64,000 bases of DNA from Candidatus Heimdallarchaeota archaeon (lineage in GTDB: Archaea > Asgardarchaeota > Heimdallarchaeia > Hodarchaeales > Hodarchaeaceae), in assembly GCA_020353515.1 (NCBI GenBank), contig CP070695.1:1271637-1335636 (forward strand), in the 5' to 3' direction. The notes under the pieces were generated by a model, which saw only the letters and a program-made list of their open reading frames with translations, was not told where the DNA came from and did not search any database. Positions within the stretch are counted from its first letter, which is position 1, and each line of letters begins with the position of its first letter. The translations under genes were made by a program, and so were the position numbers. Below are positions 13,402 to 45,537 of the stretch, piece by piece.

Positions 13402-13415
13402 AAAATATTTAAGGA
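13402..13415 (+). promoter_or_regulatory. Probable BRE/TATA for the 5S precursor
   Basis: AAAATATTTAAGGA about 55-65 nt upstream of the processing stem. Confidence 0.4.
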
Positions 13416-13469
13416 TTCTTGAAACCGCTCCTTTTGGTTTGTTTTACAAACTTGACGCTTATTACATGC

Positions 13470-13614
13470 GAGACTCTGCCGAAAGTTAAGTTAGGTTCCG
13501 TTTCGGTCTGTACTGTTGTGCGCGAGCCAACGGGAACATCGAGAAGCTGAGTATTGCTCGGCCAGAGGGCCTAGGTTACACCCGGTCTCATTCCGAACCC
13601 GGAAACAGAGTCTC
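13470..13614 (+). repeat. Processing stem and BHB-like motif flanking the permuted 5S
   Basis: GAGACTCTG(13470-13478)/CAGAGTCTC(13606-13614) perfect inverted repeat; central CCGA/CCGG; bulges AAG(13483-85) and AAA(13603-05). Confidence 0.85.
13485..13604 (+). rRNA. rrf: 5S rRNA, circularly permuted gene (3' half 13485-13552, ATT linker, 5' half 13556-13604)
   Basis: 5' half GCTCGGCCAGAGGGCCTAGGTTACACCCGGTCTCATTCCGAACCCGGAA; 3' half GTTAAGTTAGGTTCCGTTTCGGTCTGTACTGTTGTGCGCGAGCCAACGGGAACATCGAGAAGCTGAGT. Helices I-V, loop C and loop E all form after re-ordering; 120 nt. Confidence 0.92.
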
Positions 13615-13896
13615 CTTCGTCTTAGGCCCTGGAATTTACTCTTTTAATATTTTATTTTTGTTGCTTAACTACTTTTCTTATTAATTTTTATTATTACATC
13701 TTGATTCCAGTAATACAGGGATAATTAATATATTATTAATTAAAATAAACTATTTTCAATCTTTATCTTAGTGAAAGTTAAAATAAAGTAAATACAAGCA
13801 TTCGATATGATGGCTATATTCTTTGTATTGCACAAATCTCGTGATTTTTCCTCCACATATTCCCAAAAAGAAATTTTACTCCATTGGAGGCGTTAA

Positions 13897-40630: not shown

Positions 40631-40748
40631 CGCCGAGGGAGAGATTTGAACTCTCGAGCTCAGAGAGCACATGCTACCTAGAGAAGCGAAAGATTTTCTT
40701 TCATCATGCTTTCCAGGCATGCTTCCTACCGGACTAGAATACCTCGGC
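40631..40748 (-). tRNA. tRNA-Ser(GGA) with 37/38 intron (40676-40710, 35 nt)
   Basis: GCCGAGG acceptor, CATGC-CTGGAA|intron|A-GCATG, long variable arm, GAGAG-TTCAAAT-CTCTC, G73. Confidence 0.93.
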
Positions 40749-43009: not shown

Positions 43010-44902
43010 TTAGACTTGTTTCCAGTATATTACCTCTTTATTTATCTCCAGAATTTCTATAAAAAACGCGTATGCCTTATTACGAGTCGCTATCTTAATC
43101 TTTCCCGATTTTGACGTTGTTCCTACAAAAAAAGGATCCTTTTTCTTATCTAATTGGTCTTGAGTGTAGAATTGAATTGTAGTGTTACTTATGCGCTTAG
43201 GAAAACTAATATACAGAGTTTTTTTTCTAAAAGAAATCATTTTTTCCTTCACAATACTGAATCCAGAGAGGTGGGAATCCCTATCTGATTTATCGACATC
43301 TAACCTAACATGAAATGTCCGTTCTAACATTCGGATGTTCTCTCCCCCCTTTCCTAGAATTGCTGGAATGTCTTTTTGAGCACATTGGATCTCAAATCTT
43401 TTCCCGTAACGATCTTTTGGTATTAAGACAATAGGTTGAGCTGTAAATTTCTCAATAGCATTCGTTAGGTTTTGAATAGTCCGTGCATCAATTAAAATTT
43501 GGTCATAATTCTCGGTTTCAAGTGGAATTACCACTGTCTGTTCTCCAAAAGTGTACATTTCATAGACCGGTTCCCCAGTCTCAAAATCTTTTACTTCCAC
43601 CACTGGTCGCGCTAGATCACTTTCAACCAACCCAGCTGGAACCTTAACTGTCATTTTTACATCTAAAACTCTTGTTATTTTTCCTGCTTCAATGTAAATG
43701 ATAGTATCAAGAACACTAGGGATCACACCCAATTCTAATCTCCCAATAAAGCGTTGAATGGCATCTATTGCTGTGCTAGAGTGAATTACTCCCACTAAAC
43801 CGATACCAGCCAATCGAAGGTCTGTATAAAGCTTAAAATCTTCTGTGTCTCTAATTTCATCAAAAATAGTATAATCTGGACGTGAAAGAAGGAGTATGTC
43901 ATGAATTTCCGTATGAGACCCGAAATTCTTGGAATACTGAGTAATTTCAGCTTTCAAATCTAAGTCCCGTGGTGATTCAATTGTTTTTACAATCTTAGAT
44001 TTTCCTTCATAAAAAAGAGCTAGGGCTCTAGTGAACGTGGTTTTCCCAGTTCCTGGGCTGCCTGCAACTAAAATCCCTTCCGCTTTTTCTTGTAGTCGTT
44101 GATAAAGGTTGGGGGATAGGTGATAATCATCAATTGTAAGTTTGACAAGGGGTTTTACTGCAGTAATTTCCCATCCATCTGAAAATGGAGGACGACAAAT
44201 AACAATCCGAATATTTCCATACTGAACAATTGTTGAACCTTTACGGTCGATCTCAATAAAAGAATCTTCAAATTGTTGTGCCTTTTCAATGATTTCTTCA
44301 TTTAATTGTTTAAGAAATCCCTTTGTACAAATTTTATCAGATGTTTGATCAAAGCTAACATTACCAGGAGACCCTCGTTTTCTAAAAACAGGAACTCCTT
44401 GTTTAAGATGGATACTCATAGTTCTTTCATCAAAATAATCCTCAATTTGAAGTCTTTTTTCCAGAGTCTTTCCTTTTTCTGGAATATGAATGACTTCTAA
44501 ACCAATTGATTTTGCAGCTAAATATTGAATCTTGTCTGATGTGACAAGAATACCTCCTTCTTTCCATGCAAAATCCCGAATGATCGCATCAATTTCACCA
44601 CTTCGAGCCCTTTTTATTTCAGAAAGATGTGGCCTTCGTCCTCCGTAATCTATCAGAATACCCTTCATATCACAAACACGACGGATATCTGTGAGTTCAT
44701 TTAATCCCTCAATCCCTATTCTTCTCCCATTATTCGCCTGATGTTCGAGTTCAGCTATTATCGAAGCATGGATTGTTATCTTGGAGATATCTTCGCTTTT
44801 TTTAGTTTCAAGAAGGTCTTTCAAACCTCCATTGATGATAGTTGAGGTGTCAGGAACATAAAAATTATCTTCTGAATTAATCGAGTATCTTCCCTCCATC
44901 AA
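43010..44902 (-). CDS. PINA: PIN-domain ATPase with KH domain (Holliday junction branch migration family)
   Basis: VPDTS PIN motif, GEIDAIIR, GSPGTGKT, ESPRDL, LLLSRPDYTIFDEIR, KH ILGKGG. Confidence 0.9.
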   Translation of the reverse strand: MMEGRYSINSEDNFYVPDTSTIINGGLKDLLETKKSEDISKITIHASIIAELEHQANNGRRIGIEGLNELTDIRRVCDMKGILIDYGGRRPHLSEIKRARSGEIDAIIRDFAWKEGGILVTSDKIQYLAAKSIGLEVIHIPEKGKTLEKRLQIEDYFDERTMSIHLKQGVPVFRKRGSPGNVSFDQTSDKICTKGFLKQLNEEIIEKAQQFEDSFIEIDRKGSTIVQYGNIRIVICRPPFSDGWEITAVKPLVKLTIDDYHLSPNLYQRLQEKAEGILVAGSPGTGKTTFTRALALFYEGKSKIVKTIESPRDLDLKAEITQYSKNFGSHTEIHDILLLSRPDYTIFDEIRDTEDFKLYTDLRLAGIGLVGVIHSSTAIDAIQRFIGRLELGVIPSVLDTIIYIEAGKITRVLDVKMTVKVPAGLVESDLARPVVEVKDFETGEPVYEMYTFGEQTVVIPLETENYDQILIDARTIQNLTNAIEKFTAQPIVLIPKDRYGKRFEIQCAQKDIPAILGKGGENIRMLERTFHVRLDVDKSDRDSHLSGFSIVKEKMISFRKKTLYISFPKRISNTTIQFYTQDQLDKKKDPFFVGTTSKSGKIKIATRNKAYAFFIEILEINKEVIYWKQV

Positions 44903-45537
44903 TTTTCCTCCTTATTTTCTTGATTAACTTGTGGTAATTCATCCCGATATTCGTATTCCAACTCATTACGTTCTAATTCTAATTGTGAGGCCTGGTAATA
45001 GGTGACATCCCCAAGACGGTCAACTACTGAGAGTAATAACGTTTTTCTGTCGATTTTAGACTGATTAACAAGTTGGTCTAAAAAATCAAGATCAAGATCT
45101 TCGCCTTCTGGAAGAGGAAAAATGACCTTTTTGCTTATCGATTCTCCTGGCTTTCCTCCTCGAGAATAAATTCGAAATGGTGCTGTAATTTGAGTTCCAA
45201 TTCGGACAACATAACCCCTATTCCTCAGATCCTTATAAACTAAATAACGACTCCAGAAAGTTTTGTTAATTTTAGTGAAATGAGTAACTAATTCAGACGA
45301 TGTAATCTTTTGATTCGTGGTTGAATTCATAACAATAATTCTTTTTCGATCCATGAGGAGTAAAACTTCTTCTGGTTCTAAAACAAGAGAATCTTTTGAA
45401 GTCCATTGTCCAAAATAACCATTATCGAAGATCTCTTGGGCAAGGTGATCATTAACCATTAGGGATGAGCCTTGCATATCAAAATACAATATTGGCACTG
45501 AAATTTCTTTATCCGTAGAATCTAGGTCATGAGACAT
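44899..45537 (-). CDS. endA: tRNA-splicing endonuclease subunit, probably structural (non-catalytic)
   Basis: GYFG, LEPEEVLLL, YLVYKDLRNRGYVVR, RKTLLLSVVD..GDVTYY; catalytic Tyr and His positions appear substituted. Confidence 0.85.
   Translation of the reverse strand: MSHDLDSTDKEISVPILYFDMQGSSLMVNDHLAQEIFDNGYFGQWTSKDSLVLEPEEVLLLMDRKRIIVMNSTTNQKITSSELVTHFTKINKTFWSRYLVYKDLRNRGYVVRIGTQITAPFRIYSRGGKPGESISKKVIFPLPEGEDLDLDFLDQLVNQSKIDRKTLLLSVVDRLGDVTYYQASQLELERNELEYEYRDELPQVNQENKEEN

What the first reader, a model, noticed from the sequence alone, without database searches (positions are those of the whole stretch)
13470..13614. Circularly permuted 5S rRNA gene with a BHB-like processing stem predicting a 120-nt circular 5S rRNA
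Seen: the 3' half of an archaeal 5S rRNA (13485-13552: GTTAAG, helix II strand, helix V TTTCGGT/ATCGAGA, loop E GTAC/GGGAAC, helix IV with GCGA loop, GCTGAGT) precedes the 5' half (13556-13604: GCTCGGC...ACCCGGTCTCATTCCGAACCCGGAA). The normal 3' and 5' ends are fused by only ATT, closing helix I as a hairpin. The unit is enclosed by GAGACTCTG/CAGAGTCTC, a CCGA/CCGG central helix (one mismatch) and 3-nt bulges AAG and AAA. Established: archaeal EndA cuts after the second nt of each BHB bulge and RtcB circularises the excised piece. Applying that rule (AA|G and AA|A) releases exactly 120 nt, and ligation regenerates the conserved CCGAACCCGGAA-GTTAAG. Inference: this 5S rRNA matures like an intron into a covalently closed circle, or is re-opened at the ATT loop. 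Permuted genes rescued this way are known for Thermoproteus SRP RNA and some tRNAs, and permuted 5S occurs in some algal mitochondria. I know of no archaeal 5S case, and standard rRNA finders would probably miss or truncate it.
Basis: partly seen in the sequence, partly recalled or inferred. Interest (0 to 1): 0.96.

Follow-up and report, generated by a model that had tools for sequence, protein, structure and literature searches.

The report
Back-to-front 5S rRNA gene, ring product
This Hodarchaeales (Asgard) archaeon encodes its only 5S ribosomal RNA with the back part before the front part, between tRNA-splicing-type cut signals, and environmental RNA contains the predicted cut-and-rejoined 120-base form; the same layout occurs in most Asgard families sampled, which explains why 5S genes seemed to be missing from these close relatives of eukaryotes.

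Summary
Window 13485-13552 is 5S positions 52-118, ATT caps helix I, and 13556-13604 is positions 3-51. The unit lies in a bulge-helix-bulge (BHB) stem.

- **Only copy.** The closed 4.94-Mb genome has no collinear 5S. The joined sequence CCGGAAGTTAAG occurs nowhere in its DNA.
- **Conserved.** A covariance model of the permuted form finds full-length matches in 79 of 83 genomes of the class. Strong matches occur in about 20 Asgard families. Collinear 5S occurs only in six other families.
- **Covariation.** All 5S helices and all 9 pairs of the flanking helix show compensatory changes.
- **RNA.** Contigs from two metatranscriptome studies carry the predicted back-joint. One is 150 nt, which equals 120 plus k-1, as expected for a 120-nt cycle.
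- **Enzymes.** The genome has two EndA paralogues (alpha-like and beta-like) and RtcB.

Best reading: EndA cuts and RtcB joins, giving a 120-nt ring. Whether that ring is the ribosome's mature 5S is likely but not shown. I found no published report. This scan has noted the same layout before on at least 70 other genomes.

The parts
13402..13412 (+). TATA-box-like promoter element (AAATATTTAAG)
   Evidence: AATATTTAAAGRCTCTTGAA is conserved at the same distance upstream in 8 of the 14 genus members aligned; the rest carry other TATA-like variants at about the same place. Function is inferred.
13436..13469 (+). 5' leader with a small hairpin (GTTTG 13437-13441 / CAAAC 13447-13451) and a weak distal helix strand GACG 13454-13457
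   Evidence: Relatives have a different hairpin at the same place and a GCGCC/GGCGC distal helix. Inferred.
13470..13478 (+). Outer helix of the BHB, 5' strand (GAGACTCTG); discarded
   Evidence: 9 bp perfect with 13606-13614. All 9 pairs show changes on both sides in two alignments.
13479..13482 (+). Central 4-bp helix of the BHB, 5' strand (CCGA); discarded. It mimics the 5' strand of helix III.
   Evidence: Pairs with 13599-13602. It reads CCGG in 6 of the aligned genus members. CTGG/CCAG is a compensatory change in G021, and CGTG/CACG and CGGG/CCCG occur in other families.
13483..13485 (+). Bulge 1 (AAG); predicted cut 13484|13485
   Evidence: 3-nt bulge in 41 of 46 units parsed. The RNA joint is compatible with this cut.
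13485..13552 (+). Back part of 5S rRNA (positions 52-118): GUUAAG, helix II 3' strand, helix V, loop E, helix IV, helix I 3' strand
   Evidence: covariation.
13553..13555 (+). ATT cap that closes helix I where a normal 5S has its two ends
   Evidence: In other families the cap is a UNCG-type tetraloop or an extended hairpin.
13556..13604 (+). Front part of 5S rRNA (positions 3-51): helix I 5' strand, loop A, helix II 5' strand, helix III, loop C. 13599-13602 (CCGG) doubles as the 3' strand of the BHB central helix.
13603..13605 (+). Bulge 2 (AAA); predicted cut 13604|13605
   Evidence: The RNA back-joint is 13602->13483 with 2 nt of ambiguity, which equals 13604->13485.
13606..13614 (+). Outer helix of the BHB, 3' strand (CAGAGTCTC); discarded
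13615..13659 (+). 3' trailer with CGTC 13618-13621 (weak distal helix) and T runs (13642-13645, 13650-13653, 13655-13659) that look like an archaeal terminator
   Evidence: T runs follow the unit in all genus members. Inferred.

Best explanation
This is the single, functional 5S rRNA gene of the genome, circularly permuted between positions 51 and 52. It is transcribed on its own from a TATA promoter as a precursor of about 200 nt.

The leader and trailer pair into a bulge-helix-bulge motif. This has a 9-bp outer helix, a central helix CCGA/CCGG that borrows the 3' strand of helix III, and two 3-nt bulges. The splicing endonuclease (here a two-paralogue, alpha/beta-type EndA) cuts after the second base of each bulge. 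RtcB joins the 2',3'-cyclic phosphate end at A13604 to the 5'-OH end at G13485.

The native ends are already joined by the ATT cap, so the product is necessarily a covalently closed 120-nt ring carrying the normal 5S sequence ...CCGAACCCGGAA-GUUAAG.... After release, CCGG 13599-13602 pairs with 13582-13585 to form helix III. The ring itself most likely serves as the 5S rRNA of the large subunit.

- **Shown:** the layout, its uniqueness in the genome, its conservation and covariation, the joint in RNA, and the presence of the enzymes.
- **Inferred:** which enzymes act, that the molecule is a closed ring rather than a mixture, and that the ring enters ribosomes.
For: - **Anatomy and 5S identity:**
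- **No other 5S in the closed genome:** RF00001 finds none, the permuted model finds one hit, and nhmmer finds only these two halves. CCGGAAGTTAAG is absent from all 4.94 Mb.
- **The over-cut-off RF00001 hits in the relatives search** sit beside bacterial 23S, so they are contaminants.
- **Conservation:** 20 of 21 genus genomes, and 79 of 83 class genomes including 14 of 14 high-quality ones. Strong full-length matches occur in families f1, f3-f10, f12-f14, f18, f19 and f21-f26 of the phylum. Collinear 5S over the cut-off occurs in f11, f15, f17, f20, f27 and f28; the one other over-cut-off hit (G067, f7) spans tandem permuted copies.
- **Covariation:** 90.8% of cells paired against 71.9% shuffled, 34 of 44 pairs with double changes, 0 of 500 shuffles as high. 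In 22 units from other families, 93.2% against 61.3%, with the outer helix 91% paired and 9 of 9 pairs changing on both sides.
- **Per-unit parse:** 41 of 46 units have H of 3-4 bp, two 3-nt bulges and an outer helix of 3-15 bp. All 41 rebuild GGAAG(U/C)UAAG-type junctions.
- **Tandem units in G023** each have their own flanking helix.
- **RNA:** the X1 contig of 150 nt reads 13560-13602 then 13483-13589, going back 120. The X2 contig wraps the joint twice. No contig reaches the flanks. The two RNAs carry the 5S variants of two different species of the genus.
- **Enzymes:** EndA alpha-like and beta-like paralogues and RtcB.
- **Folding:** the BHB conformer is within 3 kcal/mol of the MFE.
- **Ring rather than re-opened:** helix I caps are UNCG-type tetraloops or structured extensions in many families. 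The breakpoint differs between lineages (51|52, 50|51, and 34|35 in G155) while the product stays the same.
Against: - The RNA evidence is assembled contigs of metatranscriptomes at depth about 8, not raw reads. A de Bruijn cycle could also arise from a mixture of precursor and joined linear forms.
- The RNAs come from close relatives (2-5 differences), not from this strain.
- In this genome the central helix has an A.C mismatch and no inner helix h' is evident, so the motif is relaxed rather than strict hBHBh'.
- No experiment shows EndA or RtcB acting on it, nor the ring in ribosomes.
- RF00001 could not be run on the re-ordered sequence.
Confidence: 0.9

Rival explanations
1. The ring is only an intermediate. 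After EndA/RtcB joining it is re-opened in or near the helix I cap (ATT), giving a conventional linear 5S of about 117 nt. This is how circular intermediates of permuted tRNAs are opened by RNase P and tRNase Z.
For: Permuted tRNA genes mature this way (recalled; cited in PMC4267664). Circular pre-16S/23S are classically re-linearised (PMC12918454). Contig depth is one figure per contig, so it cannot show whether cap-spanning molecules are rare.
Against: - The cap is only 3-4 nt and is often a UNCG-type tetraloop or a structured extension. It is not a spacer with processing signals.
- At a mean depth of only about 8, both contigs still run through the cap and the joint without a break.
- 23S rRNA stays circular in the ribosomes of many archaea (PMC12918454).
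Confidence: 0.25
2. The RNA is never joined. It works as a permuted linear 5S with ends at 51/52, like the permuted mitochondrial 5S of brown algae.
For: Brown-algal mt 5S is permuted and linear (PMC4267664).
Against: RNA contigs of two studies carry the joint CCCGGAA|GTTAAG, which does not exist in the genome. The break lies inside the most conserved 5S sequence, and G52-C26 must pair. The conserved BHB would have no purpose.
Confidence: 0.03
3. Misassembly, pseudogene or mobile-element debris; the real 5S lies elsewhere or was not assembled.
For: Several MAG contigs break inside the unit.
Against: The genome is a single closed contig with one hit. The same layout occurs in closed genomes of other families (G028, G038, G083, G093, G116). 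Compensatory changes show purifying selection on structure. The promoter is conserved.
Confidence: 0.01

Closest known systems
Permuted, circularised SRP RNA gene of Thermoproteus tenax / T. uzoniensis (Plagens et al. 2015, eLife, PMC4731332)
   Same: An essential structured RNA encoded back part first. [quoted passage not shown] The product is a stable circular RNA that is the functional form. The gene was 'missing' to standard finders.
   Different: A different RNA (5S rRNA, a ribosome component). Here the trait spans about 20 families of a phylum rather than one genus. The central BHB helix borrows a strand of the RNA's own helix III. Circularity and function are not yet shown experimentally.
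Circularly permuted tRNA genes (Cyanidioschyzon merolae; Thermofilum pendens; PMC3978253, PMC3218864, listed)
   Same: The 3' half precedes the 5' half, there is a BHB at the junction, and a circular intermediate forms.
   Different: tRNA circles are re-opened at an intervening sequence to give linear tRNA. Here the native ends are joined by a 3-4-nt cap that looks like a permanent loop.
BHB processing and circular forms of archaeal 16S/23S rRNA (PMC12918454; PMC7758197)
   Same: An rRNA is excised at a BHB in a leader/trailer stem and ligated into a circle. 23S can stay circular or permuted in ribosomes.
   Different: In those genes the order is collinear and the joint lies outside, or at the edge of, the mature sequence. 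The 2026 paper states that this pathway applies to 16S and 23S 'but not 5S rRNAs'. Here the gene itself is permuted and the joint rebuilds the conserved core.
Permuted mitochondrial 5S rRNA of brown algae (Rfam mtPerm-5S; Valach et al. 2014, PMC4267664)
   Same: 5S rRNA with helix I replaced by a closed hairpin and the ends moved elsewhere.
   Different: There the break lies between the alpha and gamma domains, with no BHB, no ligation and a linear product, in an organelle.
Canonical archaeal 5S rRNA (Rfam RF00001)
   Same: All helices I-V, loop A, loop C, loop E and the GAAGUUAAG box are present after re-ordering.
   Different: The gene order is 52-118, cap, 3-51. RF00001 finds only fragments below its cut-off.

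Membership tests
5S rRNA (RF00001) | Three-way junction of helices I, II-III and IV-V supported by covariation | tested here: met
   Every one of helices I to V has pairs with changes on both sides, and 90-97% of cells are paired. The re-ordered sequence folds into the junction.
5S rRNA (RF00001) | Conserved sequence boxes (loop A CAUAG-like, loop C CCGAAC, GAAGUUAAG, loop E GUAC/GGGAA) | tested here: met
   Invariant columns in the 25-sequence alignment. GAAGUUAAG exists only after joining.
5S rRNA (RF00001) | Collinear gene that reaches the Rfam gathering score (38 bits) | tested here: not met
   Two fragments of 20.8 and 15.6 bits and no hit at gathering threshold. The re-ordered form could be scored only with an HMM: 73.7 bits, full length.
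BHB substrate of the archaeal splicing endonuclease | Two 3-nt bulges on opposite strands separated by a 4-bp helix | tested here: met
   Window: AAG and AAA bulges, with the helix 3 bp plus an A.C mismatch. 41 of 46 units from 26 families parse cleanly and 30 of those 41 have 4 of 4 pairs.
BHB substrate of the archaeal splicing endonuclease | Flanking helices h and h' on both sides (strict hBHBh') | tested here: inconclusive
   The outer helix h is strong (9 bp, covarying). No convincing inner helix h' lies next to the bulges. This fits relaxed motifs cut by alpha/beta-type enzymes (PMC5829648 abstract). The genome has alpha-like and beta-like paralogues.
BHB substrate of the archaeal splicing endonuclease | Cleavage by EndA and ligation by RtcB | not testable with these tools
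   The genes are present. The joint position in RNA equals the position given by the cut rule.
Circularly permuted ncRNA genes rescued by splicing-type circularisation | 3' part upstream of 5' part, native ends joined by a short linker, BHB at the new ends | tested here: met
Circularly permuted ncRNA genes rescued by splicing-type circularisation | Joined (circular) RNA detected | tested here: met
   A back-joint of 120 nt in contigs of two metatranscriptome studies. One contig is 120 + 30 nt and one wraps the joint twice. These are contigs of relatives, not raw reads; closed-circle topology is inferred.
Brown-algal permuted mt 5S (mtPerm-5S) | Ends between the alpha and gamma domains, linear RNA, no ligation | tested here: not met
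   The break here is at 51|52 in the beta domain and the RNA is joined.

The most novel reading that the evidence does not exclude
The covalently closed ring is itself the 5S rRNA inside the ribosomes of most Asgard archaea, including all sampled Heimdallarchaeia/Hodarchaeales, the proposed closest relatives of eukaryotes. The permuted gene would then be old within the phylum. Collinear 5S genes in six Asgard families, and perhaps in eukaryotes, would be reversions or an earlier state. Gene order of 5S would then be a rare genomic change usable to test where eukaryotes branch.
Probability: 0.5. Interest if true: 0.95.

Novelty: new variant of a known kind. Interest (0 to 1): 0.9.

Why it matters
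- **It settles a reported gap.** The authors of the closed Heimdallarchaeum genomes wrote that 5S rRNA genes 'could not be predicted' (PMC8813620). Standard finders miss the gene in most Asgard genomes.
- **It extends a known pathway.** Splicing-type circularisation, accepted for 16S/23S 'but not 5S' (PMC12918454), now reaches the third rRNA, and in a form where the gene cannot work without it.
- **A circular 5S would be new.** It would be a new kind of ribosome component, and a natural counterpart of engineered permuted 5S (PMC7283268).
- **It is a discrete evolutionary character.** Families have either the permuted or the collinear form. In an RpoB tree the collinear families do not form one clade. 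That bears on Asgard phylogeny and on how the eukaryotic linear 5S gene arose.
- **It has a practical use.** The covariance model of the permuted form could be added to rRNA annotation and to MAG quality standards that ask for a 5S gene.

Tried and rejected
- **Rfam on the window.** At gathering threshold it finds no 5S here. At E-value threshold it finds only fragments.
- **Collinear hits in relatives.** L001 and L002 turned out to lie beside bacterial 23S, so they are contaminants. The 31-bit 'collinear' hits in G028, G038 and G023 are artefacts. They combine a permuted unit with a flank, or two tandem permuted units with the 46-nt spacer read as an insert.
- **Pattern scan of genome contigs.** It was useful only for naming the clade.
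- **Automatic BHB parse** failed for 5 of 46 units that carry an extra hairpin or insert between the outer helix and the central helix (G028b, G093, G089, archSRP, G023A). I read these by eye.
- **MFE fold of the precursor.** The unconstrained fold pairs the 5' flank CCG with helix III's 5' strand instead of forming the BHB. Covariation (CTGG/CCAG, CGTG/CACG, CGGG/CCCG) favours the BHB pairing.
- **Flanks in RNA.** No contig covered positions below 13479 or above 13604. This is only absence in contigs.
- **Literature searches** for permuted or circular archaeal 5S found nothing.

Full report
**What is in the sequence.**
- GAGACTCTG (13470-13478) is the exact complement of CAGAGTCTC (13606-13614).
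- Inside it, CCGA (13479-13482) faces CCGG (13599-13602), giving three pairs and one A.C.
- AAG (13483-13485) and AAA (13603-13605) are left unpaired on opposite strands.
- Between them lie GUUAAG and the rest of the back part of a 5S rRNA (13485-13552), three bases ATT, and the front part (13556-13604).
- GCTGAGT-ATT-GCTCGGC makes helix I a closed hairpin.

**5S identity.** Rfam at its gathering threshold sees no 5S in the window. At E-value threshold, 13580-13604 aligns to RF00001 positions 27-51, ending exactly at 51. The stretch from 13485 aligns from position 52 onward. Infernal cannot be given a re-ordered sequence here. So I built a profile HMM from nine collinear 5S genes of other Asgard families. 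The re-ordered sequence matches it over positions 5-115 at 73.7 bits (E 3e-24). The genomic order gives two separate matches, 51-116 and then 3-50. The re-ordered sequence folds into the 5S three-way junction.

**It is the only 5S of the genome.** The window lies in a closed 4.94-Mb contig. RF00001 finds nothing in it. My covariance model of the permuted form finds exactly one hit. nhmmer with the collinear HMM finds only these two halves. The 12-mer CCGGAAGTTAAG that a normal 5S would contain is absent from the whole genome. Titles of near-identical loci name the genus as Hodarchaeota/Hodarchaeales MAGs.

**Conservation and covariation.** BLAST finds the same layout in 20 of 21 genomes of the genus. 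The two RF00001 hits over the cut-off in relatives lie beside bacterial 23S and are contaminants.

I aligned 25 units from five families (A2) and scored the structure I named.
- 90.8% of cells are paired, against 71.9% in shuffles and about 46% when partners are slid by one column.
- 34 of 44 pairs have changes on both sides, and 0 of 500 shuffles reach any measure.
- All nine pairs of the flanking helix change on both sides. An example is GAGACTCTG/CAGAGTCTC becoming GAATCTCTG/CAGAGATTC or GATATTG/CAATATC.

The covariance model R1 then found full-length matches in 79 of 83 genomes of the class. That covers 17 of 18 genera and all 14 high-quality genomes.

In a sample of 151 genomes of the phylum, strong full-length matches occur in families f1, f3-f10, f12-f14, f18, f19 and f21-f26. 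RF00001 passes its cut-off in f11 (25 of 26; all 26 match at E <= 0.001), f17 (17 of 19), f20, f15, f27 and f28. The one other over-cut-off hit, G067 of f7 at 38.4 bits, lies on short contigs that hold tandem permuted copies. So a family has one form or the other.

I fetched 22 units from the other families. Each has its own flanking complement. On that model-fitted alignment 93.2% of cells pair against 61.3% shuffled. The outer helix is 91% paired, with four to six pair types at every position.

A per-unit parse gives a clean motif in 41 of 46 units. These have a central helix of 3-4 pairs, two 3-nt bulges and an outer helix of 3-15 bp (5 bp or more in 40 of the 41). The predicted product is 115-131 nt (150 nt in G099, whose loop-C intron is still counted in). 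The joint always rebuilds ...GGAA|GUUAAG or ...GGA|AGUUAAG.

The central helix covaries together with helix III: CCGG/CCGG, CTGG/CCAG, CGTG/CACG and CGGG/CCCG. This favours the BHB pairing over the alternative that the unconstrained fold prefers. The BHB conformer costs less than 3 kcal/mol.

Three closed genomes have sizes that fit Odinarchaeum (G083), Atabeyarchaeia (G093) and Freyarchaeia (G116).

**Variants that bear on mechanism.**
- G023 has two tandem permuted units. Each is bracketed by its own helix (CCCTTTCCCC/GGGGGAAGGG and GTCACACCT/AGGTGTGAC). So the unit is what is excised, not the spacer.
- The breakpoint is 51|52 in this genus and several families, and 50|51 in others.
- In one AT-rich genome (G155) it is 34|35 inside loop C, with TAGCG-CCGG-AAC / CCGG-TCT-CGCTA. 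The predicted product is the same.
- A breakpoint that moves while the product stays constant is what one expects if the product is a ring.
- Helix I is capped by UNCG-type tetraloops (UUCG, UACG, CUCG) or by a structured extension in many families. This looks like a permanent loop rather than a spacer to be removed.

**RNA.** Two metatranscriptomes from different studies hold parts of the stretch. Laid on 13420-13680, they show the following.
- Run X1 has one 150-nt contig (depth 8) that reads 13560-13602 and then continues at 13483-13589.
- This is a joint that 'goes back 120' with 2 nt of ambiguity, identical to the predicted 13604|13485.
- 150 equals 120 + 30, the length a 120-nt cycle takes as a k=31 unitig. 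That reading is my inference from how such assemblies are written.
- Run X2 has a 144-nt contig that passes the joint twice. It also has an 87-nt contig with TCTCATTCCGAAC in front of 13479.
- No contig reaches the flanks.
- The base differences identify the RNAs as those of two other species of the genus (G014-like and G015-like).
- The joined sequence does not exist in the DNA, so it is made after transcription.

Limits: these are contigs, not reads. Depth is low and the topology is inferred.

**Enzymes and expression signals.**
- The genome has two splicing-endonuclease paralogues, 26% identical. One is 183 aa with the usual His region.
- The other is 212 aa, lies in this window at 44899-45537 (-), and lacks the His at the aligned position. 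This fits an alpha/beta enzyme of the broad-specificity type (PMC5829648 abstract).
- RtcB is present.
- Upstream, AATATTTAAAG-type TATA boxes are conserved about 60 nt before the outer helix (8 of the 14 aligned share that string), followed by a leader hairpin. T runs follow the trailer.
- Neighbouring genes are unrelated (MptE-like, metallo-beta-lactamase fold). So this is a stand-alone transcription unit.
- Collinear 5S genes of other Asgard families have a TATA box directly upstream and no processing stem.

**Comparison with what is known.**
- *Thermoproteus SRP RNA.* This is the closest precedent: permuted, cut by the splicing endonuclease, and circular and functional (PMC4731332).
- *Permuted tRNA genes.* They use the same logic but are re-opened.
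- *Brown-algal mitochondrial 5S.* It is permuted at a different place and is never ligated.
- *Archaeal 16S/23S.* They are excised and circularised at BHB motifs. A 2026 paper says this holds for 16S and 23S 'but not 5S rRNAs'.
- *Heimdallarchaeum genome paper.* It states that 5S genes could not be predicted. My model finds two permuted copies in each of those genomes.
- *Literature.* Five searches found no report of a permuted or circular archaeal 5S.
- *Earlier notes of this scan.* They describe the same layout on at least 70 other genomes, including ring-sized RNA joints and a loop-C mini-intron. They agree with what I found independently, but they are not independent evidence.

**Evolution (tentative).** I built an RpoB tree of 29 family representatives with FastTree. 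It is a single gene and its deep nodes are weak. The eight collinear tips do not form one clade. For example, f27 is sister to permuted f14 with support 1.0. Parsimony needs five changes, against 7.2 for shuffled labels. Either the permutation is old and was reverted several times, or it arose repeatedly at the same spot. The tandem units in G023 show one route for reversion.

**Verdict.** That the ring is the mature ribosomal 5S is the most likely reading, at about 0.6-0.7, but it needs raw reads or bench work. The mechanism is of a known kind. Its application to 5S rRNA, across most of the phylum closest to eukaryotes, appears to be unreported.

Noticed in passing
L025:1470-1720 (G001, same genus); L212 (G099) and L215 (G089), AT-rich family f14: A 29-33-nt insert sits in loop C of the permuted 5S. 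It has its own BHB (TCCG / CGGG central helix, 3-nt bulges, inner hairpin). Its removal restores the consensus CCGAA|CCCGG, so it is a mini-intron inside the permuted gene.
   Followed up: partly
L214 (G155, family f14), minus strand: The permuted 5S has a different breakpoint, inside loop C (34|35), with TAGCG-CCGG-AAC / CCGG-TCT-CGCTA. A degenerate relic of the usual junction (GATCTGGAAGTT) remains in the trailer.
   Followed up: partly
L005:1428-1747 (G023, family f2): Two tandem permuted 5S units are separated by 46 nt, and each has its own flanking helix. RF00001 reads them as one collinear gene with a 46-nt insert (31 bits).
   Followed up: yes
L003:1500-1700 (G028) and L202 (G093); also L213 (G145): In some copies an extra hairpin of 20-30 nt sits between the outer helix and the central BHB helix on the 5' side. 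G093 shows a duplicated CGTGAGAG. Heimdallarchaeum genomes carry two permuted 5S copies each.
   Followed up: partly
window 40631-40748 (-): A tRNA gene has an intervening sequence of about 46 nt near the variable region. Rfam finds it (53.7 bits) but ARAGORN misses it.
   Followed up: no
window 44899-45537 (-): A splicing-endonuclease paralogue (212 aa; PF01974 + PF02778). It lacks the His at the position aligned with the catalytic region of the 183-aa paralogue, so it is probably the structural beta subunit.
   Followed up: partly
L014:1145-1219 (G009): A partial duplicate of the first 66 nt of the unit (5' flank plus the start of the back part) lies 350 nt upstream of the complete permuted 5S.
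   Followed up: no
L245 (G119), L246 (G068), L247 (G130), L248/L253 (G093): RpoB open frames of 1624-2162 aa match the query in two blocks. This suggests inteins in RNA polymerase subunit B of several Asgard families.
   Followed up: no
L249-L251 (G141 f24, G156 f26, G101 f21): Three GC-rich families have RpoB only 42-44% identical to the window's (other families are at 58-70%). They sit on a long branch, yet carry a typical permuted 5S with GCUAAG.
   Followed up: no
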